From Rickettsiales bacterium (GTDB lineage: Bacteria > Pseudomonadota > Alphaproteobacteria > Rs-D84): a stretch of 64,000 bases of DNA. Location of the stretch: the NCBI GenBank assembly GCA_031266915.1, contig JAISAB010000001.1, forward strand, positions 37,994-101,993, read 5' to 3'. This document shows, piece by piece, positions 26,971 through 64,000 of the stretch. A program made the translations under genes and the position numbers. The notes under the pieces are model-generated. The model worked only from the letters and a program-made list of their open reading frames with translations, ran no database searches and had not been told where the DNA came from. Position 1 is the first letter of the stretch, and every line of letters starts with the position of its first letter.

Positions 26971-27291
26971 ATGTATATGACATCAAAAGAACTTCCAGCA
27001 ATGCATAAACTTGCCATACGTGGTTCAGGCAGTTTAGGCGGCAATATGGTGCAGTTTTTCTGCGGGGACCATTGCAAAAACTATCATAACGGAATATGCG
27101 AAAAATATTGCGAGTTTAGTGAAGTCTTTCTTAAGAGGGTGTACATTTCCGATACCCCGTTTGTCATTACCGGCTATTCACCGAATGTTTTTCTGACCAC
27201 CAGCAATGAATCTGATAGAACGAAAATTTTAAATATGTTTAACCAGACAATGGCACAATTCGCAAAGCAAAACGATGGACGCAATGCATGA
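26971..27291 (+). CDS. Hypothetical AT-rich Cys/His-rich small protein
   Basis: ORF only; FFCGDHCKNYHNGICEKYCEF; ~38% GC; overlaps the queH start. Confidence 0.3.
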   Translation: MYMTSKELPAMHKLAIRGSGSLGGNMVQFFCGDHCKNYHNGICEKYCEFSEVFLKRVYISDTPFVITGYSPNVFLTTSNESDRTKILNMFNQTMAQFAKQNDGRNA

Positions 27292-33130: not shown

Positions 33131-36181
<3,051 letters not shown>

Positions 36182-37666: not shown

Positions 37667-40072
37667 TCACGTCCGCAGTTTTGCGTCGCAACTTTTTTCA
37701 ACCAGCGCGATAACCGAATTCTGAATTTCCATCAATTCCGCATCCGCGATATTGCCCAGCGGCTGCAGCACGATTTCAAACGCTATTGATTTTTTTCCGT
37801 CCGGCAAATCGAATATGTCGAACACATTCGTCTCGATAATGCGGTCGTCCGCGCCACGCGCGATTTCCGCCAATTCGGCCGGCTCGACATTATTCGCCGC
37901 GATAAACGCAAAATCGCGCGTAATCAGCGGGAATTCCGCCAACTCAATTTTGTCCAGCGCCGGGGCGTCCGCCGTCCATGGCGAATAAGACGCCAAAGAC
38001 GACACATCGTCGACCAATCCCAGCGCGACATTCGTCTTGATGCCGAACTTTTTCGCAACTGACGGGTGCAATTCAGCGAACACGGCGACCGTTTTGTTAT
38101 CCAAAATCAATTTTCCGGCACGATACGGATGCGCCCACAATGGCGGATTGTCGTCGTTTTCCGCGACTGCGCCCGGAAACAGGGACATCAAATCGTCGCG
38201 AATATCATAGACAGACGCATCGCGGCCGTGCTTTACGCCGATTTTTCCGCCCAGGATGCCCGTGCGCACGACTATCAATTGGTCGTGCTGCCACCCGGGG
38301 ACCGGACCGTCGAACACAGCCGCCAGTTCGAACAGAGACAAATTCGAACGGCGGAATCTGTCGTTGCCGGCAACAACGTCCAGCATCGATTGAACCAAAG
38401 AGTTCCGCGCCGTATCGAACGTATCGATAATCGGATTCAAGACGCGGACGCTTTCCTTGTACGACAGGATTTTTTCCTTTTTCGAATCTCCGAAGCCGTA
38501 ATTCATGCATTCGTAATATCCCATCGCCGCCAGCTGTTTTTTCACGGACGGGGCGCGCGCGGTGAAATCTATTTTGGCAGCGTTTTCATCCCTGACGATA
38601 TTGTCGTATCCGTATAATCTTATCAGCTCCGAGACAATGTTCTCGGGAATCGCCACGTCCACGCGCGCGGGCCTGGGGGTAATGGTCCATATGTCGTTAT
38701 TTTCTTCGACGACAAACCCCAGGGCTTCCAGAATCCGTTTCTGCATCGCCGCGTCCAATTCGATTCCGGTCTTTTTCTTGAACAGCGCCGGAGTATATTC
38801 TATGCGGCGCGGTTCCATAATTTTCAGCCATTCGGCGCCGCTTATATTTTTCATCGAATCCGGCGTTTCAGACATAAACGTCAGCTTCGGATTTTTTTCG
38901 TCCCAAACATAACGCGGCGTCATGGCGATTCCGCCGCACGCGTCCGTGATTATTTTCACGGCCTGCAGAATGCCTTGGGGCGCGATTGTCGGGTCTATGC
39001 CGCGCTCGTACCTGTAAGACGCGTCCGTGCTTATTCCGATTCGTTTGGCGGTCCTGCGCACGGTCACCGGGTCGAAATATGCGCTTTCCAGTAAAATATT
39101 TTTCGTCGCATCGGTCGTCATGCCACGCGCGCCGCCGATAACGCCTGCCAGCGCCAGAATCCCGGCCGCGTCCGCAATCACCAAATCGGTTTCTACTAAT
39201 TCGTGCTCGGCGCCGAACAGGTCGGTGAATTTCTCGCCCCGCTTCGCGTTGCGAACGATAATATCGCCGTGAATTTCGTCGGCGTCAAAGCAATGCATAG
39301 GCTGCCCCAGATCATAGCAGATATAATTAGTCGCGTCGATTGGAGCGTTCTTTGGGTTGATTCCGATGGCCGCCAGGCGCGCGGCAATCTTCGGATTCGA
39401 CGGCGCCATCTTGATGTTCTTAATCTCGCACAGATAATAAACCGGACACGCGTCATAGTTTTCAACAACCGCCCGGCGCGCGCCGTCTTTGAATTCGCCG
39501 GCATAATTGTCGTACCTGTCGATAAATTCGCCGATTCCGGCCGCGGCCAAATCACGCGCGATGCCGCGCACCGCCAGATAGTCCGGACGGTTCGGCGTAA
39601 TGCCGGCGTCAAAAATGGATAATGGACAATGGATGATGGATGATGGAATCTGCCCCAATTTCTCAACCTTTTCATCCAGTTCGATAATGCCGTCGTGGTC
39701 GTCGTTTATGCCCAGTTCCCGGCCCGAACACATCATGCCGTCGGATATAACGCCGCGGATTTTGCCCGATTTGATTTCCATATTGCCAATCTTACATCCG
39801 GGGACCGCCAGCGCGGACACCAATCCGACGCGGACGTTTGGCGCGCCGCACACGACCGTGCGCAATGCGCCGGTGCCGTCGTCGACCCGCAGCACATGCA
39901 GGTGGTCGCTGTCGGGATGCTTTTCGCATTCGACAATCCTGGCCGCAACCGGATGCGCGGTTTCGATTAATTCTTCGACCTCCAGACCGATTCGGGTCAG
40001 GGTGTCGGCAATCTCGGCCGGCGTCGCATTGGTGTCCAAATAATCTTTCAACCAATCATAAGTCCATTTCAT
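37667..40072 (-). CDS. pheT: Phenylalanyl-tRNA synthetase beta subunit
   Basis: 801 aa; N-terminal tRNA-binding domain, B3/B4, B5, C-terminal FDX-ACB-like domain order. Confidence 0.9.
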   Translation of the reverse strand: MKWTYDWLKDYLDTNATPAEIADTLTRIGLEVEELIETAHPVAARIVECEKHPDSDHLHVLRVDDGTGALRTVVCGAPNVRVGLVSALAVPGCKIGNMEIKSGKIRGVISDGMMCSGRELGINDDHDGIIELDEKVEKLGQIPSSIIHCPLSIFDAGITPNRPDYLAVRGIARDLAAAGIGEFIDRYDNYAGEFKDGARRAVVENYDACPVYYLCEIKNIKMAPSNPKIAARLAAIGINPKNAPIDATNYICYDLGQPMHCFDADEIHGDIIVRNAKRGEKFTDLFGAEHELVETDLVIADAAGILALAGVIGGARGMTTDATKNILLESAYFDPVTVRRTAKRIGISTDASYRYERGIDPTIAPQGILQAVKIITDACGGIAMTPRYVWDEKNPKLTFMSETPDSMKNISGAEWLKIMEPRRIEYTPALFKKKTGIELDAAMQKRILEALGFVVEENNDIWTITPRPARVDVAIPENIVSELIRLYGYDNIVRDENAAKIDFTARAPSVKKQLAAMGYYECMNYGFGDSKKEKILSYKESVRVLNPIIDTFDTARNSLVQSMLDVVAGNDRFRRSNLSLFELAAVFDGPVPGWQHDQLIVVRTGILGGKIGVKHGRDASVYDIRDDLMSLFPGAVAENDDNPPLWAHPYRAGKLILDNKTVAVFAELHPSVAKKFGIKTNVALGLVDDVSSLASYSPWTADAPALDKIELAEFPLITRDFAFIAANNVEPAELAEIARGADDRIIETNVFDIFDLPDGKKSIAFEIVLQPLGNIADAELMEIQNSVIALVEKSCDAKLRT

Positions 40073-41861: not shown

Positions 41862-41935
41862 GTGATTCGTAATCGGTAATCGGTAATCCGAATTTTGCGG
41901 TCGGATTACGGATTACGGATTACCAGTCACGAAAT
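41862..41935. repeat. Family C long palindromic form (cgtgattcgtaatcggtaatcgg ... cggattacggattacggattac)
   Basis: Arms reverse-complementary around ttttgcggtc. Confidence 0.55.
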
Positions 41936-42077: not shown

Positions 42078-42905
42078 TTGGCGATGAACCAGAAAAAAAT
42101 ATCTTCCAAAGTGCTGTCTTATGCGAAATCGGCGCTGGCCGCGGCTGTTTTGCCGGTCTTTTTGATATATGTCATGATTGACAAGCCCGATTACAAGATT
42201 ATCGGCGCCATGTCGCACATTGTCCTGCCGGCGGCGAACTGGGTCGGCGATGTCGTGTCGTGGCCGATACGGGCCGTGGCCAGCGGCGTGGCGGGAATAC
42301 GCGAGCTGTCCAATCTGCGCGGCGAGAACGAAGAACTGCGCGCCAAATTGGACCAGGCCCTGCGCATGCGCAACGAATGCGGCGTGGCAATTTCGGAAAA
42401 CCAAAGGCTGGCCCGAGAGCTGGACATGGTCCGCGCGTCGCCGCAAAAGGCGGTCGCTGCGCTGGTTTCCTATAACAACGACGCGTTTCACCACAGCACG
42501 TTTTTCATAGACAAGGGCGCGCGCGCCGGCATCGAGCCCGGCATGGCCGTCGTTTCGTTTGACGGGCGGCTGGCGGGCATCGTCATCGACGCGGGGCCGA
42601 CCTTTGCCAAGGTCCGCAGCCTGACGGATTCGAAATCGAACATACCCGTCCGCGTCGCCGGGTCCGAGGTCTACGGTTTTCTGCAGGGCAGCGGTTCCGG
42701 CGACCCGACGATGGGATTTTTCAGCGACCCTGAATTCCAGCCAACCCGGGGCTTGAAACTGGTCACCAGCAACATCCGCGGCGTGCTGCCCGACGGAATA
42801 ATCGTGGGCGAGATGTCCAATTCGACGGACGCGTCCGTTCTGCGCCCGACGCGCATGTCCAGCGTTATGGTTCTGCAGTTCGACGGCAAGGACAAATACA
42901 AATAG
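42078..42905 (+). CDS. mreC: Rod shape-determining protein MreC
   Basis: N-terminal TM, coiled coil LRGENEELRAKLDQAL, beta-rich C-terminal domain; followed by mreD-mrdA-rodA. Confidence 0.8.
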   Translation: MAMNQKKISSKVLSYAKSALAAAVLPVFLIYVMIDKPDYKIIGAMSHIVLPAANWVGDVVSWPIRAVASGVAGIRELSNLRGENEELRAKLDQALRMRNECGVAISENQRLARELDMVRASPQKAVAALVSYNNDAFHHSTFFIDKGARAGIEPGMAVVSFDGRLAGIVIDAGPTFAKVRSLTDSKSNIPVRVAGSEVYGFLQGSGSGDPTMGFFSDPEFQPTRGLKLVTSNIRGVLPDGIIVGEMSNSTDASVLRPTRMSSVMVLQFDGKDKYK

Positions 42906-43005
42906 TGAATAGTGATTAGTGCATAGTTTATAGTGACTAGCGGGCTAGCTACAACACTGCAAACTAAACACTAAGCACTATAAACTAAACACTATAAACT
43001 AATGG
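42903..43005. repeat. Family A element
   Basis: atagtgaatagtgattagtgcatagtttatagtgactag...cactataaactaaacactataaactaatgg. Confidence 0.55.
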
Positions 43006-46467: not shown

Positions 46468-46542
46468 CAATTAAGAATTAATAATTAAGAATTACATTTG
46501 CAAATTTAATTATTAATTCTTAACTCTTAATTCTTAATTAAA
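46468..46542. repeat. Family B aattaagaattaa palindromic element
   Basis: aattaagaattaataattaagaattacatttgcaaatttaattattaattcttaactcttaattcttaatt. Confidence 0.6.
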
Positions 46543-48818: not shown

Positions 48819-50449
48819 TGGCTTCATTCGGCAGCAATTTCACAGACGAACTACGCGCGCGTTTATCGATTGTGGACGTTGTGGGCCGGCGCGTGCCGCT
48901 GGTCAAAAAGGGTCAGAAATTCTGGGGATGCTGTCCGTTCCACAACGAAAAAACACCCAGCTTTACCGTGGACGAGGAACGCGGCCGCTATCACTGCTTC
49001 GGCTGCGGCGAACATGGCGACATAATCTCGTTCGTGATGAAGACCAACAATATGGATTTCAAGGCCGCCATCGCCGAGCTTGCGCAACAGGCCGGATTAA
49101 AACTGCCTGATTACAAACCAAAATCCGCCACGCAAATCGCGGCCGAGGAAAATTATTTTTCCATATCCGAATCAGCGGCGAAAATATACCAGCAGAAACT
49201 GTTCGACGCGGACGGCGCGCACGCATTGGAATATATAAAAAAGCGCGGATTCAGTGCGGATACAATCAAAAAATATCGCCTGGGGTACGCGCCGAAAAAC
49301 AATATAATATCCGCCAAATTCAGTAATACGAAAATTGAAAATTTAATGGCGACGGGCCTTGTGCGCCAGGGAAATTACGGTCCGTACGATTTCTTTCGCG
49401 AAAAGTTAATGTTCCCGATTTTCAATCCAGCGGGCCAGGTCATCGCCTTTTCCGGCCGCAGCCTGGACGGCAGCGAACCGAAATACATCAACACGTCCGA
49501 CACCGAAATGTTTCATAAAAGGGGCACCGTGTTCGGGCTGAACTTCGCGCGGGACGCCATCCACAGAAAAAACCGCAGCATCGTGGTCGAGGGCCAAATC
49601 GACGCAATCCAAATGCAGGTCCACGGATTCGGCGAGACAGTCGCACCGCTGGGCACCGCACTGACCGAGGAACACATAGCAATACTGTGCAAATTAAACC
49701 GCAATATAATATTCTGTTTTGACGGCGACACTGCCGGGCAAAAGGCCGCGGCGCGCGCCTGCGGCATCGTGCTGTCATTCGTGCGCGACACGTCGGACAT
49801 CCGCTTCGCCTTTATGCCGCGCGGCGCGGACCCGGACGAAGTTTTAAAATCGCCCGGCGGCGCGAACGCAATGGCGAAAATCATCGACAGCGCCCAGCAC
49901 CTGACCGACTATTTCTGGGACATGGCGAACAAATCCTTTGTCACGGCCACGCCGGGCGGCCGGACCCAAGCTGAGAAATTTATTAAAAAAGAATTGGAAA
50001 AAATCACGGATTCCGCCTTGCGCGGCGAATTCGAAAAGGAATACAATACCCGAAAATTCAACCAATGGCACAAATGGACCAGGACCAAAGGCGATGGGCA
50101 AAAAGCCCCGATTCCCAGCGTCGACGCGCTGACGCAAAAAACGCTGGGCGGCATTTGCGCCGCATACCCCGAACTGATTGAAAAGCACGCCGAATTTTTT
50201 ATCAGCGCCGGTATTAACCTTGACACCGACGAATTACCCGATACCCAATACCCATTACCCATCGAGGACGCCGAAAAGTTTATCGTGTCGCTGAAGTTGA
50301 AAAAGTATTTGGAAAAATTGAAAATTGAAAAACGCGAATTGACGAACAAATTGCTGACAGGCGATGAAACGGCGCGCGGCCGGATTTCCGCCATCGACGC
50401 CGAGATTGATAAATCGTCGCAGCGCTTGAATTTGATAACTGGGGACTGA
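48818..50449 (+). CDS. dnaG: DNA primase
   Basis: Zinc-binding CPFHNEKTPSFTV...YHCFGCGEHGD; Toprim EGQIDAIQ and DGDTAGQKAA. Confidence 0.9.
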   Translation: MASFGSNFTDELRARLSIVDVVGRRVPLVKKGQKFWGCCPFHNEKTPSFTVDEERGRYHCFGCGEHGDIISFVMKTNNMDFKAAIAELAQQAGLKLPDYKPKSATQIAAEENYFSISESAAKIYQQKLFDADGAHALEYIKKRGFSADTIKKYRLGYAPKNNIISAKFSNTKIENLMATGLVRQGNYGPYDFFREKLMFPIFNPAGQVIAFSGRSLDGSEPKYINTSDTEMFHKRGTVFGLNFARDAIHRKNRSIVVEGQIDAIQMQVHGFGETVAPLGTALTEEHIAILCKLNRNIIFCFDGDTAGQKAAARACGIVLSFVRDTSDIRFAFMPRGADPDEVLKSPGGANAMAKIIDSAQHLTDYFWDMANKSFVTATPGGRTQAEKFIKKELEKITDSALRGEFEKEYNTRKFNQWHKWTRTKGDGQKAPIPSVDALTQKTLGGICAAYPELIEKHAEFFISAGINLDTDELPDTQYPLPIEDAEKFIVSLKLKKYLEKLKIEKRELTNKLLTGDETARGRISAIDAEIDKSSQRLNLITGD

Positions 50450-52945: not shown

Positions 52946-53532
52946 AATATTTCGGATTACGATTCACGAAAAAAATCGCGCCCGTTGGGCGCGATACTTT
53001 AAATACAAGGGATTCCCATCTTCATGGGAATTTCCTTACTTTTTCTTAAAACCCTGTTTCGCCTTGAATTTGGGATTGTCTGGGTCAATAAGAATAACTT
53101 GTTTGCCGCGGCGAATCTGTTTTACATTGCCGCGCTTTTTCCAAGCCTTCAAAGAACTTAAGAACTTCATGTCATATTCCTTTTTGCCATGCGATTATAA
53201 CCGCTTTTTATAAGAAATCAACCAAAACTTCTAATAATAGTTTAATATTCGCTATACATTCAACCGTTATATGAAATTTCAATTTCTTATTAATATATTG
53301 TTGTTGTTTTTATACAGGTTAAAATTGTTAAAAACGCTTTTAATTTTTTTATCAACTGATTTTCAACAAAAAAAGCCGGTGTTTTCGCGCCTGTTTATAA
53401 AAATGTTAAAAAATATCGCCGGTAATCAACAGTTGAAAAACATATAAGTTTCCGGCTTTTTCAACAAATTTTTCAGATTTGTTTTTATGCTTGTTGAAAA
53501 ATGTTGAAATTGTTATAATTAACCCGTACCGA

Positions 53533-53844
53533 ATGGAGACGAGAGAATTGCGGCAACAAGTCCTGAAAGCTTTGGCGAACCCATCGCGCATATTTTATGT
53601 GCCCTATACGCTGGCGGTTTTAAATTTCGTGCTGCAGTTTCTGGTATTCATCGTCATTTTCATAGGCGGTCTGATAATTTCCGGCGGCGGCGTGGGAATA
53701 AACCCTCTGGCGTTTTTAATATCCGTGATGGCGGTTCATTCGATTTTGGCCGGCTTTTCCAAACGAGAGCCTCAGCTGGCGCAGATTATCGCGGCCAAAT
53801 TGCGCCTATTTAAATCGCGCGCCCCGAACAAGTTGACGGCATGA
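53533..53844 (+). CDS. virB3: Type IV secretion system protein VirB3-like
   Basis: ~104 aa; IFYVPYTLAVLNFVLQFLVFIVIF ... VMAVHSILAGFSKREPQLAQI fits the VirB3 pattern; immediately upstream of virB4. Confidence 0.6.
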   Translation: METRELRQQVLKALANPSRIFYVPYTLAVLNFVLQFLVFIVIFIGGLIISGGGVGINPLAFLISVMAVHSILAGFSKREPQLAQIIAAKLRLFKSRAPNKLTA

Positions 53845-53845
53845 T

Positions 53846-56254
53846 ATGAATCAATTCTTGGAATATTTTATCACTGGGGGATTTTCGATGACATCGGTCA
53901 TTCTGGCCATGGCCGTCGTTTTCGTGTTCATTATCCTGATGTTGTACGTTCCTACAATCGCGCTGTGGATTTTCCCAAAGTTCGGATACAAGAAATATTC
54001 TCAATACCTGCCGTTCGCGACGGTGTTCACGGACAATTCGATTCAGCTGACCGACGGGTCCTTGATAAGGGCTTATAAAATCGACGGTGTTCAAACCAGC
54101 ATGCAGGACGAGAAAACCCGCAACCAATTCCTGGATTTGCGCGCACAGCTGTTCAACCAAATCAACGACCCCGGCGTTACCCTGCGCTTTTACACAATTC
54201 GCGATTTCGCGGCCGATAAGACTGATTACGAATTCGACGGGCCGACGCTGCAGAAAATTTACGACAAGTGGAACAGCCAGGGGTTGAAGATTTTCACGAA
54301 CAGCTATTATGTGGTTCTGTCGGTTGGCGGGTCGAACGCCAGAGAAAAGCTGAACCAGTACGGCAACTATATCGAATCCATACTGGCCGCGTACGGACCC
54401 AGCGTTCTGGACAACGCGCGCCCGGAAAATATGGCGAAATTGTTCGCCCGAATCCTATCGCCGATCACCAAGCCGCGGCCTGCACGGTGCGACCAAAGAA
54501 TCGCGGAAACAATAACCGTCGACGATGTGGAATTTCTGGGCAACGGACTGATCCGGTATTCCAGCGGCGCCAAAAAATCGTACGCCGCGACCGTATCGTT
54601 CAAGGTGTCCCCGGATTATCTGGACGAGGAATTCTTCAACACCGTGTCCACCATCCAATGCGAGATGATAACCATGAACGGATTCCGCATTATGGGCGCG
54701 GCCGATATAGGCAACGTCATCCGCCAACGGCGCGCCACGTCCGATAATAACGACGACGCGGCCGAGGAACAAATCCGCGACGCGCAATCCGCGATGGACG
54801 AGAACGCGGCCGGCACGCAGACGCTGCTGAACTATTACCCGCTGTTCGTTCTGTTCGGCGACACGGTCGAATCTCTGCAGGACGGCGTCGACGAATTCAA
54901 AAAGATTTCGGCGGCTTTCGGCATATCGCCGGTTGTGGAAAACTTTGCGTCCAAGGTTTCGTGGTTCTCGCAGATTCCTGGATTCGACGTGTTTCCGCGC
55001 AGTTTCAAAATGCTGTCGAAAACAGCCGCGGTCAGCATACCAATGTCATCGACGCCCAAAGGCGTCGCGAATTCAGACTGGGGTCCGGGCCCGCTGGTCG
55101 TATTTCCGACAGCCCAGGGAACGCCGTATATGTTCCAATTCCACGTATCCGCCGCGCCCGCGGCCGTGGGCCATACGCTGACGGTCGGCCCGACGGGCGG
55201 CGGAAAAACGACGCTGTTCTCGTTCCTGATAGCGCAATCGCTGCGACATCCGAAATTAAAGGCTTTCTTTTTCGACCGGAACAAGGGCGCCGAAATCTTC
55301 ACGCTGTCGGTCGGCGGAAAATACGTGACCATGCAGAACAAGGAAAAATCCGCCGGCATGGGATTCGAGGCGCATTTGAATCCACTGAAGATGGAGGACA
55401 GTGTCGCCAACCGCGCGTTCCTGCGCCGATGGCTCGCGATGATTTCGGGGCAGTCCGACACGCGTTCCGCGGACGAAATCGCACGCGCGGTATCCGTCAA
55501 TTTCGATTACTTGGGCGACAAGGACCGGATGTTGAAAAGCCTATGGGAAAGCTGCTTTTCGTCCGAGGGCAATATGCGCGGCGCGCTGAAAAAATGGGTC
55601 GACCCGCTGCAATACGGCGAAATATTCAATGAAACCGCCGATACGCTGGATTTGCAGTCGCGTCTGACCACGTTCGATTTTACCGAAATTCTGCAGGACC
55701 AGACATTGTCGCCGGCCGTGATTTCATACATCCTGCACCGGATAAACAACACGACCGTGTCGGGCGGAAATCCGTCGCTGATTATGATTGACGAAACGGC
55801 GCCGATGCTGGAAAACAAGATGTTCCGCGACAACTTTATCGTCGGCCTGCAAGAGGGCCGCAAAAACCGCCAGGCCTATATGGTGGCCTTTCAGCGCGCG
55901 AACGTGCTGGACAAGCTGGGTATCGGCGACGTGGTGCGCGGCCAGGCGCAGACGGTTTTATTCTTCCGCAATCCGGCGGCCGACGCGAACGATTACCAGT
56001 ACTGGAATCTCAATCCCTTGGAAATGGCGTTCATCCAGGGCAAGGCTTATCCGAACCTGAAGCGCGCGGTGCTGCTCTCGCGCCCGGTAAATGGCGAATC
56101 AGTGATTCTGAATACGGAGCTCGGCGGATTGGGCAGTTTGCTGCGCCTGTTCGAATCCGGCCGCTCCAGCGTGCTTTTGGCCGAAGAGCTGTACAGGCAG
56201 TACGGGAATAATTTCGTCGGCGAATACTTGCGCAAACAGGGCGCGGTGGAATAA
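53846..56254 (+). CDS. virB4: Type IV secretion system ATPase VirB4
   Basis: 802 aa; Walker A TVGPTGGGKTTLFSFL; Walker B LIMIDETAPML; N-terminal TM region. Confidence 0.9.
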   Translation: MNQFLEYFITGGFSMTSVILAMAVVFVFIILMLYVPTIALWIFPKFGYKKYSQYLPFATVFTDNSIQLTDGSLIRAYKIDGVQTSMQDEKTRNQFLDLRAQLFNQINDPGVTLRFYTIRDFAADKTDYEFDGPTLQKIYDKWNSQGLKIFTNSYYVVLSVGGSNAREKLNQYGNYIESILAAYGPSVLDNARPENMAKLFARILSPITKPRPARCDQRIAETITVDDVEFLGNGLIRYSSGAKKSYAATVSFKVSPDYLDEEFFNTVSTIQCEMITMNGFRIMGAADIGNVIRQRRATSDNNDDAAEEQIRDAQSAMDENAAGTQTLLNYYPLFVLFGDTVESLQDGVDEFKKISAAFGISPVVENFASKVSWFSQIPGFDVFPRSFKMLSKTAAVSIPMSSTPKGVANSDWGPGPLVVFPTAQGTPYMFQFHVSAAPAAVGHTLTVGPTGGGKTTLFSFLIAQSLRHPKLKAFFFDRNKGAEIFTLSVGGKYVTMQNKEKSAGMGFEAHLNPLKMEDSVANRAFLRRWLAMISGQSDTRSADEIARAVSVNFDYLGDKDRMLKSLWESCFSSEGNMRGALKKWVDPLQYGEIFNETADTLDLQSRLTTFDFTEILQDQTLSPAVISYILHRINNTTVSGGNPSLIMIDETAPMLENKMFRDNFIVGLQEGRKNRQAYMVAFQRANVLDKLGIGDVVRGQAQTVLFFRNPAADANDYQYWNLNPLEMAFIQGKAYPNLKRAVLLSRPVNGESVILNTELGGLGSLLRLFESGRSSVLLAEELYRQYGNNFVGEYLRKQGAVE

Positions 56255-56940
56255 TGTTCAAGGTTCAAAGTTCAAAGTTCAAAGAATTGTCGCGCCGGCG
56301 ATTGCCTGTATTGAAGTTCAATCTTTTATATATATATCTTATCTCGTATCTCGTATCTGGTATCTCATACGCGGACGATTGTCTGCCTTATAAATTAAAT
56401 CCTGAAATCGAGGTATTGACGCCGTCCTGGCACAAGGAGGTTGTCCAGCCGCTGAAACCTATGGAATTGTTGGACGGGCTGCATGGAAACGTAGTGGCCA
56501 CATTGGATAACGATTATGAGGTAACGGGCGACACGACGTCCGTCGAGGACGGTTTCTGCGTTTCGCTGAAATCGGTATCGGCGACCATCGGGTACAGCGG
56601 ATTCCAGGTCGGGATAGATTCGCGCCATGCGCCGGAATCATGCGTATACAACGCGATTTTAACGCACGAGGACGAACATATACGGGCCTATCTGTCGGTG
56701 ATAGACGATTACAGTGACGATATTCGGACGGCGGTCCGCGCGGCGGCGAACTCGGTCATGCCGATTTTCGTCCGAACCGGGACAGAGGCAGAATCGGCCC
56801 TTGATTCGCTGCACGACAGCCTGCAAAGCCATCCGGAATTGATTCTGATGAACCAGCGCATCCAGGCCGAACAGGAAATTAGAAACAAGCGCGTGGACCA
56901 GGTCGAAACCGGCAGTCATCTTAAGATGTGTATGGAATAA
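56254..56940 (+). CDS. Hypothetical secreted protein with HExxH motif (LTHEDEHIRAY) downstream of virB4
   Basis: 228 aa; the N-terminal 40 codons are built from family K (gttcaaggttcaaagttcaaa) and tatctcgtatct repeats; the true start may lie downstream. Confidence 0.4.
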   Translation: MFKVQSSKFKELSRRRLPVLKFNLLYIYLISYLVSGISYADDCLPYKLNPEIEVLTPSWHKEVVQPLKPMELLDGLHGNVVATLDNDYEVTGDTTSVEDGFCVSLKSVSATIGYSGFQVGIDSRHAPESCVYNAILTHEDEHIRAYLSVIDDYSDDIRTAVRAAANSVMPIFVRTGTEAESALDSLHDSLQSHPELILMNQRIQAEQEIRNKRVDQVETGSHLKMCME

Positions 56941-57061
56941 ATATTATATTATGTATAAATGGTCAGATTCTTTAGAGAATAACAACAATGTATTCAACAG
57001 TTGGTTGAATGTTTTTTAGAAATAGGTTCTTGTAACAATATGAATAAAAATGAGCCGTTTT

Positions 57062-60061
57062 TTATCCAATTTCTTTCATTATGTTATCGGTTTCCAACAA
57101 GATAGCGATTATCTTTTGGTAGTGAATAACGTCTTCAAATGACAATGTGCGGCCACGGCGGTCTTTCAACCACTTTTGCGCCGGCTGATAGCCGCCGATA
57201 AAAAATTCCCATGCAGTATCCGGCACATTATCAAAATATTGGGTTTTGTTTATATAAACTCGGTTGCCATCTCGTACAACCTTTTCAACAGTGTCATCTC
57301 CGGATATAGGATAGGTACAGGTTGTCGCGGGGACAAATTCCATCAGGTGCAGCTTTCGCAGGCGTTCGCCCAGTTTTGCCAGTCGTTCAAATTCTTTGAC
57401 ATCTTTCGGATATGGAATCTTTGGAAAATCTATTTTTAGAAATTCACGATATTTTTCCCGATATGACGGACTGTGCAGCACCGCATAAATATAATCAAAT
57501 ATTTCAACAGCATCTGCATCACGCCCGATGGATTTAGATATTTGATTTACTATACGCTGGTCCAAGTTTGATTCCGGCCGTTCGCCAAAGTATGTATATA
57601 ACGGAAATATAACATATGAAGCAAAAGGCTGAGATGATATTTCAGATAATTTGTCAGTTATAAAAGATATAAAATGTTTTTTAGCGCCAAATTGACGAGT
57701 CGCTATTAAAGCAATGTTTGGCTTTAACATATGTTGCATGACGCTATATCTGTGTCTGACAACTTTATCCAAATCATAATTTATCCATCTGGTATCAAAT
57801 GGTCTGTAAGAAATTTTTTGGTTAAACTTGGTATCAAATGCATTAAAAGAAATCAATTCAGAATCATTATGTGTTTTTATACCGGTCGTGTTTATTTGAA
57901 ACAAATCTGTCAAAGAAAACCCATTATCATACACGTTTCTTTCTGATAAGTCTTTGTCCACAAAAAAGCAATACGGTTCAATCGGTTTTAGCTCTTTATA
58001 TTTTGTTGAGTCTAAATCATTCTTGCTTAAAAAGTCGTATTTCTCATTGCGTTTTCCATAAATATCATTATAAAAAACCTTGCCTAGAGTTTTCTTTTTA
58101 TCCAATGTTTTTATAAATATATTGATGGACACACCCTGCATAATATCAAACACGTTTTCATCCTTGCCGCCGTCCGGTATGGTTTCGCCAATATTTGAAT
58201 TCCCGTGTAAATTTAATATATAAATTTTATCGAATGTTTCCATCAGCGATTTGCGCATCTGACGATGTATCACGCCGTCAAGAAAACTATTGTTTGTGAT
58301 AAACGCCAGTATTCCGGAACCGTTCTTTTCTATAAAGTTCTGACCCAGCGCAATAAACTTTATATAATCATCCGAAAGCGGCTGAATATTTCTCTCGTTT
58401 AAGTCTTCTTTGTATTTTTTAATCAAATGCTTGGCATAATCGTTATTGTTCGAGCTGCTGACGCTATACGGCGGATTTCCTATCACGCACATCACCGGAG
58501 TATCTTGTTTGATAGTATTCGCCTCGCGCGCTTCGTTGGACAGCCACTGGGCAAAGAAAAGCGTCTGTGTGTTCGGGTCGGCTTCTTCAAGGCTGTTGGT
58601 CAGATATACCCCCAAGCGTTGAGTTGAGTTTTTTATCACGGCATTCTTGCCGATATCGGCCAATTTATTATCAAACAAATCATCTTGCCGGAACATCTTT
58701 TCATTAATTGGCGCATCGTCCTGAATATATCCGGTTTCGCGTAATACCAAGTCTAACTTCAAATGTGCCATGGCATAACTGGCCATCAATAATTCAAACC
58801 CATGAATGCGCGGCAACAAATGCTCATCAACGTACTTTGTCCAAAGCCCGGTATTGTTTTCAAAACTCTTGTGTATAAAGCGAATTGTTTCGGCCAAAAA
58901 AGTTCCGGTTCCGGTCGCGGGGTCAAGAACCTGAACGCGATGAAATTCTTTGTCTATCGGCTTATTCGTGCCTTGGGTGTTTGTCTTCTTGATAATTTTT
59001 GAATTATCGGCCAATCCCAAAGGCAATTCAAAGTCTGTCTTTAATATATTGTCAACCGCGCGGACTATATAATCAACCACAGGTTGCGGGGTATAGAAAA
59101 CGCCACGGCTTTTCCGCAAAGCCGGATTGTATTCAGCAAGGAACGTCTCATAGAAATGTATAATAGGGTCGCTTGTTTTTGTCTTGCGTCCAAAGTCGCG
59201 CATAATATCCGCAACATCTGTGTACGAGAAAATCTCGGCAAGGTTATCAACCACCAAAACAATTCGTTCATCTATTTCCGTGCCGGCGATATATCCGAAT
59301 AAATTACGCAAAAATGGATTTGTTTTCGGTATAAGGCTTGCGGCTTCAACGCGTGTAAAAGTGCTTAGCGACTTATCATGTAAACGAGCCGCAAACATTC
59401 CATAGGCTATAGTTTGCGCATACACGTCGGCAAATTCGCTGGTGGTTATATCATGTATCAGCATTTCTTGGAAGACTGTCATTTGCTCGCGCAGTGATGA
59501 ATTACTCTTACCGTCTTTTTCCAAAGCCTCATTGATAACGTTGGCAACCAGTTTTGCTTTGCCGGCCATCAATTCGGCCAGTCTTGACGCAGATTTAATG
59601 GTTGTGGTTTTCTTGATATAAAAATCACGTAGCAAATTTTCCAAGAAATCATAGTGTTCTGGTATCGGCGTAATTGTTTTGCTGTCAAAATCGGCAATTC
59701 TTACGCGTTTAAAAACAATGCCGCTTTTATAAAAGATAAAATCAAAGTAATCCGTATAAATTAAATTATCAAATCCGTTGCGATAGCGTTCCAACTGGTC
59801 TTTTTCATACCCGTGCAGGTTATCAAGGCGAGACACGCCGATACCTTTAGTTTCAATATATCCAACAGCAACGTCTTTAAGTTTTATTACGAAATCCGGT
59901 GCACCGAAAGTCCCGCGAGTCGGCTCGTTTATAGCAATTATGTCCGGGTTTAAAGATTCCAGCAATTTCTTCAGATGCGGACGATATGTATGTTCATTCG
60001 CTTCGCCTGTTTTCCATTCCCGTTCAATCGCAGAGATATAGTTTGTAAATAACTGTGACAT
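57062..60061 (-). CDS. Type IIG restriction-modification enzyme (MmeI-like: N-terminal PD-ExK nuclease fused to N6-adenine methyltransferase and TRD)
   Basis: 999 aa; PDFVIKL...GYIETKGIG aligns with MmeI D..WPGILLIEMKSRG; FYTPQPVVDYIV resembles AHYTSE; GNPPY catalytic motif; AT-rich. Confidence 0.75.
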   Translation of the reverse strand: MSQLFTNYISAIEREWKTGEANEHTYRPHLKKLLESLNPDIIAINEPTRGTFGAPDFVIKLKDVAVGYIETKGIGVSRLDNLHGYEKDQLERYRNGFDNLIYTDYFDFIFYKSGIVFKRVRIADFDSKTITPIPEHYDFLENLLRDFYIKKTTTIKSASRLAELMAGKAKLVANVINEALEKDGKSNSSLREQMTVFQEMLIHDITTSEFADVYAQTIAYGMFAARLHDKSLSTFTRVEAASLIPKTNPFLRNLFGYIAGTEIDERIVLVVDNLAEIFSYTDVADIMRDFGRKTKTSDPIIHFYETFLAEYNPALRKSRGVFYTPQPVVDYIVRAVDNILKTDFELPLGLADNSKIIKKTNTQGTNKPIDKEFHRVQVLDPATGTGTFLAETIRFIHKSFENNTGLWTKYVDEHLLPRIHGFELLMASYAMAHLKLDLVLRETGYIQDDAPINEKMFRQDDLFDNKLADIGKNAVIKNSTQRLGVYLTNSLEEADPNTQTLFFAQWLSNEAREANTIKQDTPVMCVIGNPPYSVSSSNNNDYAKHLIKKYKEDLNERNIQPLSDDYIKFIALGQNFIEKNGSGILAFITNNSFLDGVIHRQMRKSLMETFDKIYILNLHGNSNIGETIPDGGKDENVFDIMQGVSINIFIKTLDKKKTLGKVFYNDIYGKRNEKYDFLSKNDLDSTKYKELKPIEPYCFFVDKDLSERNVYDNGFSLTDLFQINTTGIKTHNDSELISFNAFDTKFNQKISYRPFDTRWINYDLDKVVRHRYSVMQHMLKPNIALIATRQFGAKKHFISFITDKLSEISSQPFASYVIFPLYTYFGERPESNLDQRIVNQISKSIGRDADAVEIFDYIYAVLHSPSYREKYREFLKIDFPKIPYPKDVKEFERLAKLGERLRKLHLMEFVPATTCTYPISGDDTVEKVVRDGNRVYINKTQYFDNVPDTAWEFFIGGYQPAQKWLKDRRGRTLSFEDVIHYQKIIAILLETDNIMKEIG

Positions 60062-60848
60062 TCTTGCGTCCTATTTTATATTATTCCTAGTATAGCACTA
60101 ATAAATGGCATAAAACAAGTTTTTATAGGGTTTAAAGAATATCAGATTTTTCGCTTATCATCTTTTTTTGCGGAATTAAAGGCGTGTCAGACTATTGTTG
60201 CCGCGATATAATCCGGCGATGTAAACATTTCTAGATGCCATCTGGAACGAAAGTGCAAAAATGAGTTTTCCATAAAGCATAATTTTGAAGTGGATGCAGA
60301 GCCATCAATCAACGAACTAAACGAATCCAAAGGCCTTTTTAAAGCATTGGAAGATTATAAAATAAAAGTATCTAAAGATAACCCAGTTTTTTTAGTATCC
60401 TGCGCTTGAATTTGCAAAATTAAAAAACTCTCTATAATTACATAGAACTAAATTTGGTTGTTCGCAATAGACAAAGTTCTAACCAACCATGTGTACGAGT
60501 TGGTAGATTTTATAAACCAGTAAAATCCCTTTCGGGAACTGTTATCTATCGAGCACAATGAACTAATATCTATAGCCACCAGAAACCGTAATTAATAGCA
60601 ATAATCTACCTCAAACATCCAATTTTTACCCAAACCTTGATAATAACACCAATTTTCACTCCCAAGGCTTTCAGACCTTTTGTTTCGTTTATAACCTATT
60701 AATATTTCTTAGTAATCTTAAATAACAATTGATTTTATGCAGATTGTAGGATATTGTAAAATTAATAAAGCGCGGTGGCAAATAACCAAAATTGGTAGCA
60801 AAAAGCACCCGTGGTAGCAAATAGGTAGAAAAAAAATGAAAAGGTAAT

Positions 60849-61646
60849 GTGTCAGAAAAGGCAATGAAAATGGAATATAAATTAAAAAATAGATATAAGG
60901 CCGATTTAGAAAAACAACTAAATAGATTATGTTGTCATACCATGGAGGCGGTGGTTGATTTAGAGATGTTTTTTTATCCTTTGCGAGATCCCAGCGTACA
61001 TAATGATAGCTTTGCATTTAAACATTCTTTAGATATATTTTTTGAGAGAGCTCTCTTGTCTATAAGAAAGCTCGTAGAGCCGTCACAGAAAAATGACAAA
61101 GCAACTTTGAATTCAATAGGCAAGATAATCTTGCAGCCTGATTTTTACTTGATCCCAGATGAGGATTCAGATTGGACAGATGTTTTAAGAACAGTGGGAA
61201 GAGCAGAAGAAGTTATAGACCTTGCACAAAGGCATGCAGAGAAGTTTTTTCAAAAAAACTATGGGGATGCATTGCAAAAATTATCCAAAAATATTATGGC
61301 CTTTTTAAACTCAGAACAAGCGTTGCGAATAAAAGACTATAGAGATTATTCTTGTCACATATTATTGAACAAGCCAAAAAGCGTTTCATTTGAAATTTAT
61401 GATAATATGTCCAATACTCTAAACAAAACAGTCGATTTTTTATCAAGATTACATGATTTTGTCTTTGATGAAAAAGCAGACTTCTTTAAACAAATAGCCA
61501 TTTTAGCCCCCGTGCTTGCTGAAAATTACTGGAAAACCATCAACGAAGGGGCAAAATTGGTTGAAAATAAAAAACAAGAAAGAGAAACCTTAGCAGAGAT
61601 TTTAAAGAGAGCATCTAATAATTCTGGGGTAAGAAATAACCAATAA
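60849..61646 (+). CDS. Hypothetical island protein with candidate HEPN-type Rx4H motif (RDYSCH)
   Basis: 265 aa, predicted all-helical; preceded by TGGYAGCAAA direct repeats at 60770-60830; no family confidently recognised. Confidence 0.4.
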   Translation: MSEKAMKMEYKLKNRYKADLEKQLNRLCCHTMEAVVDLEMFFYPLRDPSVHNDSFAFKHSLDIFFERALLSIRKLVEPSQKNDKATLNSIGKIILQPDFYLIPDEDSDWTDVLRTVGRAEEVIDLAQRHAEKFFQKNYGDALQKLSKNIMAFLNSEQALRIKDYRDYSCHILLNKPKSVSFEIYDNMSNTLNKTVDFLSRLHDFVFDEKADFFKQIAILAPVLAENYWKTINEGAKLVENKKQERETLAEILKRASNNSGVRNNQ

Positions 61647-61668
61647 AATCAACTTTACCGAACGTGTA

Positions 61669-62803
61669 TTGGAAAATATGCCAGTTCCGACTGATAAACA
61701 GACTGTATATTACGACAGTGGCAGTAAAGATGGCCTGTGTGTCATCGTGACATATGGTGGGGCAAAGACTTATTATGCTTACATGAAGTTCCAAGGTGTC
61801 CCAAAACGTATCAAAATTGGTCGTATGGGACAAATTAAACTGATCAAAGCACGCGAAATTGCACATAGCCTTAAAGAACATCAACCCTTGGCTAAGATCC
61901 CAGCGCAAAGCGTAAAGAAGATTTAAAAGACATAACATTAAAGCAGTTTTACGAAACGGCTTATAAACCGGAGTATTCTTTGTTGTACAAAAAGTCGGGG
62001 TCAGTGGCAAATGATGACAGTTTGTTTAATCACAGGCTGAAAGATTTTTAAAACAGGCGGTTATTAAGCATAAAATCGGAGGAGATTGAAAAACTACATA
62101 ATAAAACAAAGAAAGAGTTATCTCCATACACAGCAAATCGCGTTTTGTCATTGATAAAACATGTTTATGTAATTGCTATAAAGCACGGCCACATCCGCAG
62201 AGATGCAAATCCGGCAGAATTAATCCGTAAATTTCCAGAGGCTAGCCGCGATCGATTCTTAAAATCAGATGAAATGAAACGATTTTTTGATGCGCTTACG
62301 GTCGAAGATAACCCAGTGTTTAAAAACTATATATTATTGTCGTTGTTTACAGGTCAACGCCGCAATAATGTGTTGACGATGCGCTGGGATAACATAGACC
62401 TTAAGAATGTTTTATTTACTTTCCTGACTCCAAGAATGGCGAACCGCCGCAAGTTCCCATGACAACACAGGTAAAAGAACTGCTGGGATCAATGGAACAC
62501 GATTCTGACAGCGAATGGGTATTGCCAAGCAAAAAGTCCGCTAGCGGACACCTTGAAGACCCAAAACGTCCATGGCAAGATCTGTTGGCGCGCGCCGGTA
62601 TAGAAAACCTGCGCCTACATGATTTACGGCGCACACAGGGCAGCTATCAGGCTATTACTGGTTCCAGCTTACATATCATCGGAAAGTCCCTAGGACATAA
62701 ATCGCCCAGCGCAACAGAGTTGTATTCTAGACTAACCACCGATCCAATCCGCGAATCTATGCAACGCGCTACTGATAAAATGTTAGAGTTTACGGAAGGC
62801 TAA
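61669..62803 (+). pseudogene. Frameshifted/interrupted P4-type tyrosine integrase
   Basis: Three collinear fragments: N-terminal arm-binding (DUF4102-like, 61669-61926), core-binding (62145-62462), catalytic (62459-62803; HDLRRT ... ELYSRL). The 61927-62144 gap translates as integrase in another frame. Confidence 0.7.
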
Positions 62804-63010
62804 CAATTATTAAGGCAGGCTATATTATGTATTAAATTACTCGAAGTAGTTGATATCTGATAAGAAGATGATAAACTTCATGCAAAAATGAAGGAATGGC
62901 AAATGGCAGTTCGTATTGATATAAATAATAACAGCGAGGCTTTGGACTATGATTTAAGGAAGTATTTTCAATCTGGTAAGCTCAACTTTCTAATTGGATA
63001 AGGCGCATCT

Positions 63011-63967
63011 ATGCCGGCCATATCAGCAGGTGGCAATATAGAAAATGAATTAAAAGAGTTGGCAAGCGACCCTGAGCAGAGCAATGAATACGAGAAAAAA
63101 CTCTATGGATTTTTGGCTGGGGTTCAGAAAGCCCAAAACGATATTATAGCGGGAAGTTTTATTGATGGCGCAGGAGCAAACAATACGGGTAATACGCTAT
63201 CAAATTATGAGAAATTTATAACTACCATCGTATCACTTTTACTGGCCAGGAATAACCCTATCATTCTAAAGCGAATGAACATATTTTCGACAAATTATGA
63301 TATGTTTATTGAGAAGGCTGTTGAAGAAGTTTCGCCACTACATGTAAATGACGGTTTTGTTGGGAGTTGTAGAATTGATGCGAAATTTCCATTCTCGACG
63401 CACACATTTTCTAATTGTATGCATAATGCCGGAGATTATTACAAAACATATATACCGACAATCAACATAATAAAATTACACGGTTCATTGTCATGGCAAT
63501 CGAATGAGGTGGGTAAAATTTTCTTTGGTAATAATTCGTTACCAGAACTTTCGAATGATGACATTAATGATTTAGACACATTGAAAGAACGTAATAAAAA
63601 GTACAGCAATATAATTATTCCAACTTTGAAAAAATTTGAAGATACTGTCCTTATGCAAACATATTACGATTTACTACGGATATATTCAAACGAGCTAGAT
63701 AAAGAGAATAGCGTTATGTTTGTATTTGGTTTTTCATTCAATGATGAACGCATTTTAGAGATCACAAAACGGGCATTAAAAAACACTACTCTTGAAGTCA
63801 TCATCTTTGCTTATGGCGCTGCTGAAGTTGCAGATTTTGAAAGAAAGTTTACTGGGTTTCAAAATGTGAAAATTGTTTATGATTCAGCAAATGATGCAAA
63901 TATTAGTTTTGAGCGGTTGAACTCAATCTTTTCAGATATAAAACCAGCAGAAGGCCAAGATGTCTAA
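63011..63967 (+). CDS. SIR2-like (SIR2_2 family) protein, probable NAD+-depleting defense effector
   Basis: 318 aa; DGAGAN, IFSTNYDMFIE, IIKLHGSLSW, FVFGFSFNDERI match ThsA/DSR-type SIR2 motifs (GAGxS, TTNYD..LE, KLHGS, hFIGYSxxD). Confidence 0.65.
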   Translation: MPAISAGGNIENELKELASDPEQSNEYEKKLYGFLAGVQKAQNDIIAGSFIDGAGANNTGNTLSNYEKFITTIVSLLLARNNPIILKRMNIFSTNYDMFIEKAVEEVSPLHVNDGFVGSCRIDAKFPFSTHTFSNCMHNAGDYYKTYIPTINIIKLHGSLSWQSNEVGKIFFGNNSLPELSNDDINDLDTLKERNKKYSNIIIPTLKKFEDTVLMQTYYDLLRIYSNELDKENSVMFVFGFSFNDERILEITKRALKNTTLEVIIFAYGAAEVADFERKFTGFQNVKIVYDSANDANISFERLNSIFSDIKPAEGQDV

Positions 63968-64000
63968 TTTGGAAAAAATTGTTCAGCAAAACACAATCCT
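63960..64000 (+). CDS. Partial gene (MSNLEKIVQQNTI...) overlapping the SIR2 stop by 8 nt; truncated by the window edge
   Basis: ATG at 63960 in the +1 frame relative to the SIR2 stop; translational coupling implied. Confidence 0.3.
   Translation, partial: MSNLEKIVQQNTI

What the first reader, a model, noticed from the sequence alone, without database searches (positions are those of the whole stretch)
57062..60061. MmeI-family Type IIG enzyme in a repeat-saturated, probably host-restricted genome
A single-chain nuclease-methyltransferase-TRD enzyme is unexpected in a reduced genome. Its recognition specificity could be read from the TRD and compared with the methylome. A BREX PglX-like alternative was considered but rejected.
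Basis: partly seen in the sequence, partly recalled or inferred. Interest (0 to 1): 0.5.

Follow-up and report, generated by a model that had tools for sequence, protein, structure and literature searches.

The report
DrdV-like single-chain restriction-modification enzyme
This is an intact gene for a single protein that both cuts and methylates DNA; it belongs to a very common known family and lies in a recently imported defence island, so it is ordinary.

Summary
The ORF is real: 57062-60061, minus strand, 999 aa, uninterrupted and full length compared with its homologues.

[quoted passage not shown] The catalytic residues D56, E70 and K72, together with E23 and Q89xxxY93, are invariant in 32 homologues. 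The methyltransferase carries FYTP, DPATGTGTF and NPPY.

The family assignment is not.
- MmeI and PglX match only at about 1e-10.
- No MmeI-specific N-terminal, helical, TRD or C-terminal Pfam domain is found.
- There is no ATPase motor, so it is not Type ISP either.

The family is very large, spans many phyla, and has no conserved neighbour gene. The exact protein is already in NCBI as "N-6 DNA methylase", from a Rickettsiales-labelled MAG.

The gene sits in a low-GC island (GC3 0.41 against 0.62-0.79 for the chromosomal genes measured) with a decayed integrase and a SIR2-HerA system. The "reduced genome" premise could not be verified, and relapsing-fever Borrelia plasmids carry full-length homologues. 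This is a new member of a known kind, of low interest.

The parts
57062..60061 (-). Complete gene for a 999-aa single-chain restriction-modification enzyme (DrdV-like Type IIG/IIL)
   Evidence: ORF and translation. PADLOC REase_MTase_IIG E 8.7e-288. Identical to NCBI MDR1337484.1.
59612..60061 (-). N-terminal PD-(D/E)xK nuclease domain (aa 1-150)
59894..59896 (-). Codon of catalytic Asp56 (the PD of PD-ExK)
   Evidence: Invariant in 32 homologues. Aligns with DrdV D64, a metal ligand in the DrdV structure.
59846..59854 (-). Codons Glu70-Thr71-Lys72 (the ExK of PD-ExK)
   Evidence: E70 and K72 are invariant. They align with DrdV E79 and K81.
59162..59611 (-). Helical connector (aa about 151-300)
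   Evidence: All-helical in the model. Same position as the DrdV 'helical connector region'.
58202..59161 (-). Gamma-class N6-adenine methyltransferase domain (aa about 301-620), with a clade-specific, low-confidence insert at about aa 419-511
   Evidence: Pfam N6_Mtase, Eco57I and MmeI_Mtase. Motifs FYTP 322-325, DPATGTGTF 380-388 and NPPY 529-532. Aligned with DrdV and LlaBIII.
58898..58924 (-). Motif I (AdoMet binding), DPATGTGTF
   Evidence: Positions. Nearly invariant in homologues.
58466..58477 (-). Motif IV (catalytic), NPPY
   Evidence: Positions. Invariant.
57065..58201 (-). Target recognition domain (aa about 621-999). It contains a hypervariable core (aa 741-850) and a conserved C-terminal 'guide' (GGYQPAQKWLKDR).
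   Evidence: Pfam Type_ISP_C at aa 739-996, E 8e-67. Identity to homologues in aa 741-850 is 35-70%, against 71-81% in the methyltransferase domain. This stretch has the lowest GC in the gene, 0.32-0.34.
56941..64000 (.). Low-GC, horizontally acquired defence island that carries the gene. The right end lies beyond the window.
   Evidence: GC falls from 0.48-0.59 to 0.31-0.45. GC3 is 0.30-0.45 for island genes against 0.62-0.79 for the ten chromosomal genes measured. None of the genome's heptamer arrays occurs here.
61630..62803 (+). Decayed P4-type tyrosine integrase (pseudogene)
   Evidence: The Phage_integrase Pfam match is split over two ORFs. The three-frame reading shows at least two frameshifts and an internal stop.
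63011..63967 (+). SIR2 protein of a neighbouring SIR2-HerA anti-phage system (context, a separate system)
   Evidence: PADLOC SIR2 E 2.4e-80. Pfam SIR2_2.
63960..64000 (+). Start of the HerA partner gene, which runs off the window
   Evidence: The 184-aa N-terminal fragment on L001 hits PADLOC HerA at E 3.7e-56.
60849..61646 (+). 265-aa ORF of unknown function between the restriction-modification gene and the integrase remnant (island cargo; may or may not be a real gene)
   Evidence: No hit in Pfam, PADLOC or NCBIfam. GC3 0.30.

Best explanation
The gene encodes a stand-alone restriction-modification enzyme of the DrdV type (Type IIG/IIL). One 999-aa chain carries a PD-(D/E)xK nuclease, a helical connector, a gamma-class N6-adenine methyltransferase and a Type ISP-style TRD.

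The mechanism is inferred by homology with DrdV. The methyltransferase-TRD unit binds a short asymmetric site, flips out one adenine and slowly methylates one strand, which protects the host. When several unmethylated sites are bound at once, as on incoming DNA, DNA-bound monomers oligomerise. [quoted passage not shown] No ATP or translocation is needed.

The gene arrived by horizontal transfer as part of a low-GC defence island that also carries a SIR2-HerA system and a now-decayed integrase. The island lies next to virB3-virB4 in the chromosome of an uncultured alphaproteobacterium labelled Rickettsiales.

Shown: the ORF, the domain architecture, the intact catalytic motifs, the family placement, the stand-alone status and the foreign composition. 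Inferred: activity, one-strand methylation, the oligomerisation-licensed cut and the recognition sequence (unknown).
For: - The ORF is intact and full length.
- PADLOC REase_MTase_IIG scores 8.7e-288.
- Pfam finds Type_ISP_C plus N6_Mtase and Eco57I.
- The best solved relatives by sequence and profile are DrdV 7LO5 (5.4e-36 and 5.4e-58), then LlaBIII and LlaGI.
- Foldseek on the whole-protein model gives DrdV 2.8e-39, LlaGI and LlaBIII about 1e-33, BrxX 4.5e-11 and MmeI 1.8e-10.
- E23, D56, E70 and K72 are invariant in 32 homologues. They align with DrdV E25, D64, E79 and K81, which form its active site; K81 mutation abolishes catalysis.
- Motifs I and IV are intact.
- There is no ATPase domain.
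- No gene family is shared by more than 3 of 80 related loci, so the gene is self-sufficient.
- Foreign composition: GC3 is 0.41 against 0.62-0.79. The island also holds integrase remnants and SIR2-HerA.
- The DrdV mechanism is taken from 10.1101/2021.01.06.425610.
Against: - There are no functional data: no methylome, no expression evidence and no recognition sequence.
- Overall identity to DrdV is only about 20-25%, so the details of oligomerisation and cut distance may differ.
- The whole-chain model is moderate (pLDDT 72, pTM 0.50), with a disordered insert at aa 419-511.
- The promoter scan found no more sites than shuffled sequence.
- The adjacent integrase is decayed, so other island genes could be decaying too, although this one shows no lesion.
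Confidence: 0.8

Rival explanations
1. It is a member of the MmeI family proper, with MmeI-type nuclease, helical, TRD and C-terminal domains.
For: The overall domain order is the same. Pfam MmeI_Mtase is hit at 32.9 bits against a cutoff of 27. Foldseek finds MmeI 5HR4 at 1.8e-10.
Against: Pfam reports no other MmeI domain at E<=0.1, and nothing for the N-terminal 324 aa at E<=10 apart from a marginal N6_Mtase match at E 0.075. The TRD is Type_ISP_C. MmeI is absent from the phmmer and profile searches of the PDB at E<=1. DrdV and the Type ISP enzymes match 23-29 orders of magnitude better by fold.
Confidence: 0.04
2. It now works only as a DNA methyltransferase, either as an orphan or epigenetic enzyme or as a silenced nuclease, as the NCBI name 'N-6 DNA methylase' implies.
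For: NCBI annotates it and several homologues as N-6 DNA methylase. Toxic nucleases are often lost while methyltransferases persist. The neighbouring integrase is a pseudogene.
Against: The nuclease domain is complete and folds confidently. All active-site residues are conserved. No frameshift, stop or truncation is present. The foreign GC3 indicates recent arrival, leaving little time for decay.
Confidence: 0.12
3. It is a Type ISP enzyme (ATP-driven translocation and collision cleavage), as the PGAP name for its homologues ('type ISP restriction/modification enzyme') and the JGI name ('predicted helicase') suggest.
For: Pfam Type_ISP_C is hit at 8e-67. There is strong similarity to the LlaGI and LlaBIII methyltransferase-TRD units. 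Homologues carry these names.
Against: The protein is 999 aa, against 1578 aa for the solved LlaBIII chain. No helicase or ATPase family is hit. The matches to LlaGI and LlaBIII cover only their methyltransferase-TRD halves, residues about 840-1520. About 150 aa of helices link the nuclease directly to the methyltransferase. No adjacent helicase gene is present.
Confidence: 0.02
4. It is the methyltransferase component of a multi-gene defence system such as BREX PglX or MADS MAD2.
For: Faint hits only: NCBIfam MAD2 at 22.8 bits and BREX_1_MTaseX at 19.2 bits, PADLOC mad2 at 6e-12, and Foldseek BrxX at 4.5e-11.
Against: These scores are far below the curated cutoffs of 720 and 500 bits. A nuclease domain is present. 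Every ORF of 500 aa or more in the window was scanned: nine are housekeeping or T4SS genes and one has only a TPR repeat match. The flanking genes are virB4, an unknown 228-aa ORF, an unknown 265-aa ORF, an integrase remnant and SIR2-HerA. No conserved neighbour appears in 80 related loci.
Confidence: 0.02

Closest known systems
DrdV (Deinococcus wulumuqiensis; Type IIL; PDB 7LO5/7LVV)
   Same: The chains are collinear and of similar length (999 aa against 1029 aa): PD-ExK nuclease, helical connector, gamma N6A methyltransferase, TRD. DrdV is the best match by sequence, profile and fold. The active-site residues align: E23, D56, E70 and K72 with DrdV E25, D64, E79 and K81.
   Different: Identity is only about 20-25%. 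The TRD differs, so the recognition site is presumably not DrdV's (5' CATGNAC 3'). The window protein has a clade-specific insert of about 35 aa in the methyltransferase region (aa about 445-480) that the Bacteroidota homologues in A1 lack. Conservation of DrdV's oligomerisation contacts (K8, R12, D15, E41, R46) was not tested.
Type ISP enzymes LlaGI / LlaBIII (PDB 5FFJ, 4XQK)
   Same: The methyltransferase and TRD (Pfam Type_ISP_C) are homologous, including the NNSF and NPPY elements and the C-terminal guide.
   Different: The window protein has no SF2/RecA ATPase motor or coupler, and its nuclease resembles that of DrdV and BpuSI. The expected mechanism is therefore fixed-distance cutting without ATP, not translocation and collision.
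MmeI family (Type IIL; PDB 5HR4)
   Same: The enzyme class and domain order are the same, with one-strand methylation and multi-site licensing of cleavage. The methyltransferase fold is distantly similar.
   Different: No MmeI-type N-terminal, helical, TRD or C-terminal domain is found. There is no detectable sequence match to the MmeI chain. The fold match is 29 orders of magnitude weaker than that to DrdV.
BpuSI (Type IIG; PDB 3S1S)
   Different: There is no sequence-level match. BpuSI is shorter (870-residue chain) and its TRD is not matched at sequence level.
BREX PglX/BrxX (PDB 9EWZ, 8C45)
   Same: The gamma-class methyltransferase core with motifs I and IV is shared, as is one-strand methylation of an asymmetric site.
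   Different: PglX has no nuclease domain, needs the other BREX proteins and has BREX-specific N- and C-terminal domains. The window protein has a nuclease, is stand-alone and scores 19 bits against the 500-bit cutoff.

Membership tests
DrdV-like single-chain Type IIG/IIL restriction-modification enzymes | N-terminal PD-(D/E)xK nuclease domain with the catalytic D...ExK triad | tested here: met
DrdV-like single-chain Type IIG/IIL restriction-modification enzymes | Helical connector directly joining nuclease and methyltransferase, with no motor domain | tested here: met
   The model shows helices from aa 133 to about 318. No ATPase family is hit.
DrdV-like single-chain Type IIG/IIL restriction-modification enzymes | Gamma-class N6-adenine methyltransferase with motif X, then motif I, then motif IV (NPPY) | tested here: met
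   FYTP 322-325, DPATGTGTF 380-388 and NPPY 529-532. Pfam N6_Mtase and Eco57I.
DrdV-like single-chain Type IIG/IIL restriction-modification enzymes | C-terminal TRD of the Type ISP/DrdV kind | tested here: met
   Pfam Type_ISP_C 8e-67 over aa 739-996. Profile alignment to DrdV residues 427-897 at 5.7e-47.
DrdV-like single-chain Type IIG/IIL restriction-modification enzymes | Works as a single gene (no obligatory partner) | tested here: met
   No neighbour family is shared by more than 3 of 80 related loci.
DrdV-like single-chain Type IIG/IIL restriction-modification enzymes | Methylates one strand of an asymmetric site and cuts at a fixed distance when several sites are bound | not testable with these tools
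   This needs a methylome and biochemistry. It is inferred from DrdV.
MmeI family | MmeI-type N-terminal nuclease, helical spacer, TRD and C-terminal domains (Pfam MmeI_* families) | tested here: not met
   Only MmeI_Mtase is hit (32.9 bits). No other MmeI family appears at E<=0.1 or, for aa 1-324, at E<=10.
MmeI family | Detectable sequence homology to MmeI across the chain | tested here: not met
   MmeI (5HR4) is absent from the phmmer and profile searches of all PDB chains at E<=1. The Foldseek match is only 1.8e-10 at 12% identity.
Type ISP restriction-modification enzymes | SF2/RecA-like ATPase translocase between nuclease and methyltransferase | tested here: not met
   The protein is 999 aa. 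No helicase family is hit. Matches to LlaGI and LlaBIII cover only their methyltransferase-TRD halves.
BREX PglX | Reaches the curated PglX model cutoff | tested here: not met
   NCBIfam BREX_1_MTaseX scores 19.2 bits against a cutoff of 500.
BREX PglX | Encoded in an operon with PglZ, BrxC and BrxL | tested here: not met
   The neighbours are virB4, ORF228, ORF265, an integrase remnant and SIR2-HerA. Every ORF of 500 aa or more in the window was scanned: nine are housekeeping or T4SS genes and one has only a TPR repeat match.
MADS (MAD2 methyltransferase) | Reaches the curated MAD2 model cutoff and has MADS partner genes | tested here: not met
   22.8 bits against a cutoff of 720. No MADS partner genes are adjacent.

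The most novel reading that the evidence does not exclude
The enzyme has a recognition specificity not yet catalogued: the best match to its hypervariable TRD core among the 59 closest homologues compared is about 70% identical. It is also active in a host-associated, Rickettsiales-like alphaproteobacterium. In this reading it arrived together with SIR2-HerA, next to the virB3-virB4 type IV secretion genes, and now stabilises the immobilised island as an addiction module. That would indicate ongoing phage or mobile-element pressure and gene flow in a lineage assumed to be isolated.
Probability: 0.15. Interest if true: 0.3.

Novelty: new member of a known kind. Interest (0 to 1): 0.15.

Why it matters
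It matters little beyond annotation.

- Public names are misleading. The exact protein is called "N-6 DNA methylase", and homologues are called "type ISP restriction/modification enzyme" or "predicted helicase". The evidence here points to a motor-less, DrdV-type cutting and methylating enzyme.
- For anyone studying this organism, the gene predicts one asymmetric, one-strand m6A motif in the methylome and a barrier to DNA uptake.
- The low-GC island (restriction-modification gene, SIR2-HerA, dead integrase) shows that this lineage has recently received foreign DNA. That weakens the premise of an isolated, reduced genome.

Tried and rejected
- **MmeI membership**: rejected.
- **Type ISP**: rejected because there is no ATPase.
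- **PglX/BREX and MADS**: rejected on scores and on missing partner genes.
- **Pfam match for the nuclease domain alone**: none, even at E<=10. The domain was identified by motif conservation and structure instead.
- **Conserved partner gene in 80 related loci**: none found.
- **Borrelia burgdorferi BBE02 as a reduced-genome precedent**: tested and rejected. It shares only methyltransferase motifs. The true precedent is the 1048-aa protein on relapsing-fever Borrelia plasmids.
- **Phage carriage**: only two partial, weak Listeria-phage hits.
- **Phase-variable repeats**: no homopolymer of 7 or more bases and no simple-sequence repeat inside the gene.
- **Promoter and terminator scans**: uninformative, no excess over shuffles.
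- **Rfam**: only the four tRNAs. Nothing in the 790-nt gap upstream of the gene at gathering thresholds.
- **Rest of the 105-kb contig**: attempts to fetch it, to find the right end of the island and any virB6 genes, returned only a 9.6-kb contig.
- **Recognition sequence from the TRD**: not attempted seriously, because no characterised enzyme with a closely similar TRD core was available.
Full report
**Observation**

The window holds an uninterrupted ORF at 57062-60061 on the minus strand (ATG start, 999 codons). At the gene's own base composition, 999 consecutive sense codons would occur by chance with probability about 5e-31. Both termini and the length agree with homologues of 995-1005 aa. 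An AGGA motif lies a few bases upstream of the ATG. A separately assembled 9.6-kb contig from run SRR14710922 is identical over 9104 nt and spans the gene and both flanks.

**What the protein is**

- Pfam finds Type_ISP_C (aa 739-996, 8e-67), Eco57I, N6_Mtase and, more weakly, MmeI_Mtase.
- PADLOC's REase_MTase_IIG model PDLC03610 matches at 8.7e-288.
- Among solved structures, the best sequence matches are DrdV (7LO5, 5.4e-36), LlaBIII and LlaGI. A 20-sequence profile raises these to 5.4e-58, 3.5e-57 and 7.7e-52. MmeI and BpuSI are still not found at E<=1.
- An AlphaFold model of the whole chain (pLDDT 72) gives Foldseek matches of 2.8e-39 to DrdV and about 1e-33 to LlaGI and LlaBIII. It gives only 4.5e-11 to BrxX/PglX and 1.8e-10 to MmeI.

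**The nuclease domain**

- No Pfam family covers the first 150 residues, even at E<=10.
- In 32 homologues E23, D56, E70, K72, Q89 and Y93 are invariant.
- The profile alignment puts E23, D56, E70 and K72 opposite DrdV E25, D64, E79 and K81. The DrdV paper describes these as the nuclease active site, and K81 mutation abolishes catalysis.
- A model of residues 1-150 is confident (pLDDT 92.8).

The nuclease is therefore present and looks catalytically competent.

**The methyltransferase and TRD**

The motifs FYTP (322-325), DPATGTGTF (380-388) and NPPY (529-532) occur in the gamma-class order and are conserved. The NNSF segment aligns with the same element of LlaBIII. The segment at aa 741-850 is hypervariable among relatives (35-70% identity, against 71-81% in the methyltransferase domain). 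It also has the lowest GC in the gene. This is the usual signature of a specificity-determining TRD core. No relative among the 59 closest compared shares it closely, so the recognition sequence cannot be read off.

**Family placement**

The enzyme has the DrdV architecture: nuclease, helical connector, methyltransferase and TRD. [quoted passage not shown]

- It is not a Type ISP enzyme. It has no ATPase motor, whereas Type ISP enzymes are defined by one.
- It is not a member of the MmeI family in the strict sense.
- It is not PglX. It scores 19.2 bits against a 500-bit cutoff, it has a nuclease domain, and no BREX genes are present.

The 'MmeI-family' label is not.

**How common it is**

- The protein search hit its ceiling: all 8000 scored candidates were significant. 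The 120 best listed, apart from the window protein itself, are roughly 50-78% identical in their best local alignments and nearly all of them carry Type_ISP_C.
These span Bacteroidota, several proteobacterial classes, Spirochaetes, Planctomycetes, Chloroflexota, candidate phyla and others.
- No neighbouring gene family is shared by more than 3 of 80 related loci, so the gene is self-sufficient.
- Forty-four plasmid records carry matches covering at least 80% of the query, including Acinetobacter, Paracoccus, Agrobacterium and Pseudomonas plasmids and the linear plasmids of relapsing-fever Borrelia. Phages essentially lack it.
- The exact protein is already public as MDR1337484.1, 'MAG: N-6 DNA methylase [Rickettsiales bacterium]'.

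**Context**

The rest of the window is ordinary chromosome: mreB, mutS, truB, recF, parB, metG, ileS, pheST, mreC, PBP2, rodA, topA, dnaG, ychF, and then virB3-virB4. These genes have GC 0.52-0.61 and GC3 0.65-0.79.

From about 57000 to the window end, GC drops to 0.31-0.45, and GC3 of the genes there is 0.30-0.45 (0.41 for the restriction-modification gene). This stretch also holds:
- a P4-type tyrosine integrase broken by at least two frameshifts and a stop;
- a 265-aa ORF with no known family;
- a SIR2-HerA anti-phage pair (PADLOC 2.4e-80 and 3.7e-56).

The genome's very frequent heptamer tandem arrays (about 40 arrays before position 56400) are absent from the island. By my rough estimate about 5 would be expected there, giving a Poisson P of about 0.007. 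Together these point to a recently acquired, now immobilised defence island.

**The 'reduced genome' premise**

This premise was not verified.
- The window shows dense, intact housekeeping genes.
- The closest TopA relatives (77-83% identity) are uncultured Alphaproteobacteria that recur on many metagenome contigs, up to hundreds of kilobases long.
- Restriction-modification enzymes of this very family occur on plasmids of relapsing-fever Borrelia, which from general knowledge are obligate parasites with small genomes.
- The literature search turned up a Type III system in the small genome of host-adapted Mycoplasma bovis.

The presence of such an enzyme is therefore not surprising.

**Mechanism**

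Inferred by homology with DrdV. The methyltransferase-TRD unit binds an asymmetric site and methylates one adenine on one strand. Cleavage is licensed only when several unmethylated sites are bound and DNA-bound monomers assemble. [quoted passage not shown] ATP is not needed. Activity, site and cut distance are untested.

**Verdict**

This is a real, intact and probably functional DrdV-like Type IIG/IIL restriction-modification gene in a horizontally acquired defence island. It is a new member of a well-known and very abundant family. Interest is low.

Noticed in passing
window 1-56400 (for example 1694-1782, 14005-14042, 15888-15976, 41869-41923, 42901-43002, 46469-46539): About 40 tandem arrays of 7-nt units (such as TAGTCAN, GATTACG, AATTAAG) occur here, usually as inverted pairs of arrays that can form long hairpins. 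Most are intergenic. None occurs in the low-GC island after 57000. From memory, they resemble cyanobacterial STRR heptamers; I do not know of them in Rickettsiales-like genomes.
   Followed up: partly
window 4796-4913 (inside truB, 4581-5600) and 27358-27475 (inside ORF 27275-28000): A palindromic element of about 118 nt with heptamer arms occurs in two copies (88% identical), both inside protein-coding ORFs. In truB it splits the TruB family match into aa 8-73 and aa 110-257. The DNA fold is -38.4 kcal/mol, z -5.3. Its behaviour resembles in-frame Rickettsia palindromic elements. Similar heptamer arrays lie inside mutS (2215-2283), ileS (35582-35616), pheT (39614-39647) and dnaG (50235-50261).
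   Followed up: partly
window 63011-64000 and L001:1-1501: A SIR2-HerA anti-phage system lies immediately to the right of the integrase remnant, in the same low-GC island. HerA runs off the window end.
   Followed up: partly
window 61630-62803: A P4-type tyrosine integrase pseudogene: its arm-binding N-terminus and catalytic domain are spread over three frames, and there is an internal stop. No tRNA gene is adjacent.
   Followed up: yes
window 60062-61646: A 790-nt AT-rich gap with no convincing ORF or Rfam match is followed by a 265-aa ORF (GC3 0.30) with no hit in Pfam, PADLOC or NCBIfam. This is unexplained island cargo.
   Followed up: partly
window 53479-56940: virB3 and virB4 (type IV secretion) are followed by a 228-aa ORF of unknown family whose 5' end consists of heptamer repeats (56256-56366), so its annotated start is doubtful. 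No virB6 gene follows before the island begins. Whether the island interrupts a Rickettsiales-type virB3-B4-B6 cluster could not be checked.
   Followed up: partly
window 14000-16540: A stretch of about 2.5 kb next to parB is largely non-coding and has lower GC (0.46). It is packed with heptamer arrays and with 21-, 40- and 42-nt tandem repeats (16046-16293). It may be a replication-origin or partition region.
   Followed up: no
restriction-modification protein aa about 445-480 (window about 58620-58730): A clade-specific insert of about 35 aa in the methyltransferase region is shared with the closest (alphaproteobacterial) homologues and absent from the Bacteroidota homologues in A1. It lies within the stretch predicted to be disordered (pLDDT below 50, aa 419-511).
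   Followed up: no
public annotation of this family: Motor-less homologues of about 1000 aa are named 'type ISP restriction/modification enzyme' by PGAP and 'predicted helicase' by JGI, although they have no ATPase domain. The window protein itself is named only 'N-6 DNA methylase'.
   Followed up: yes
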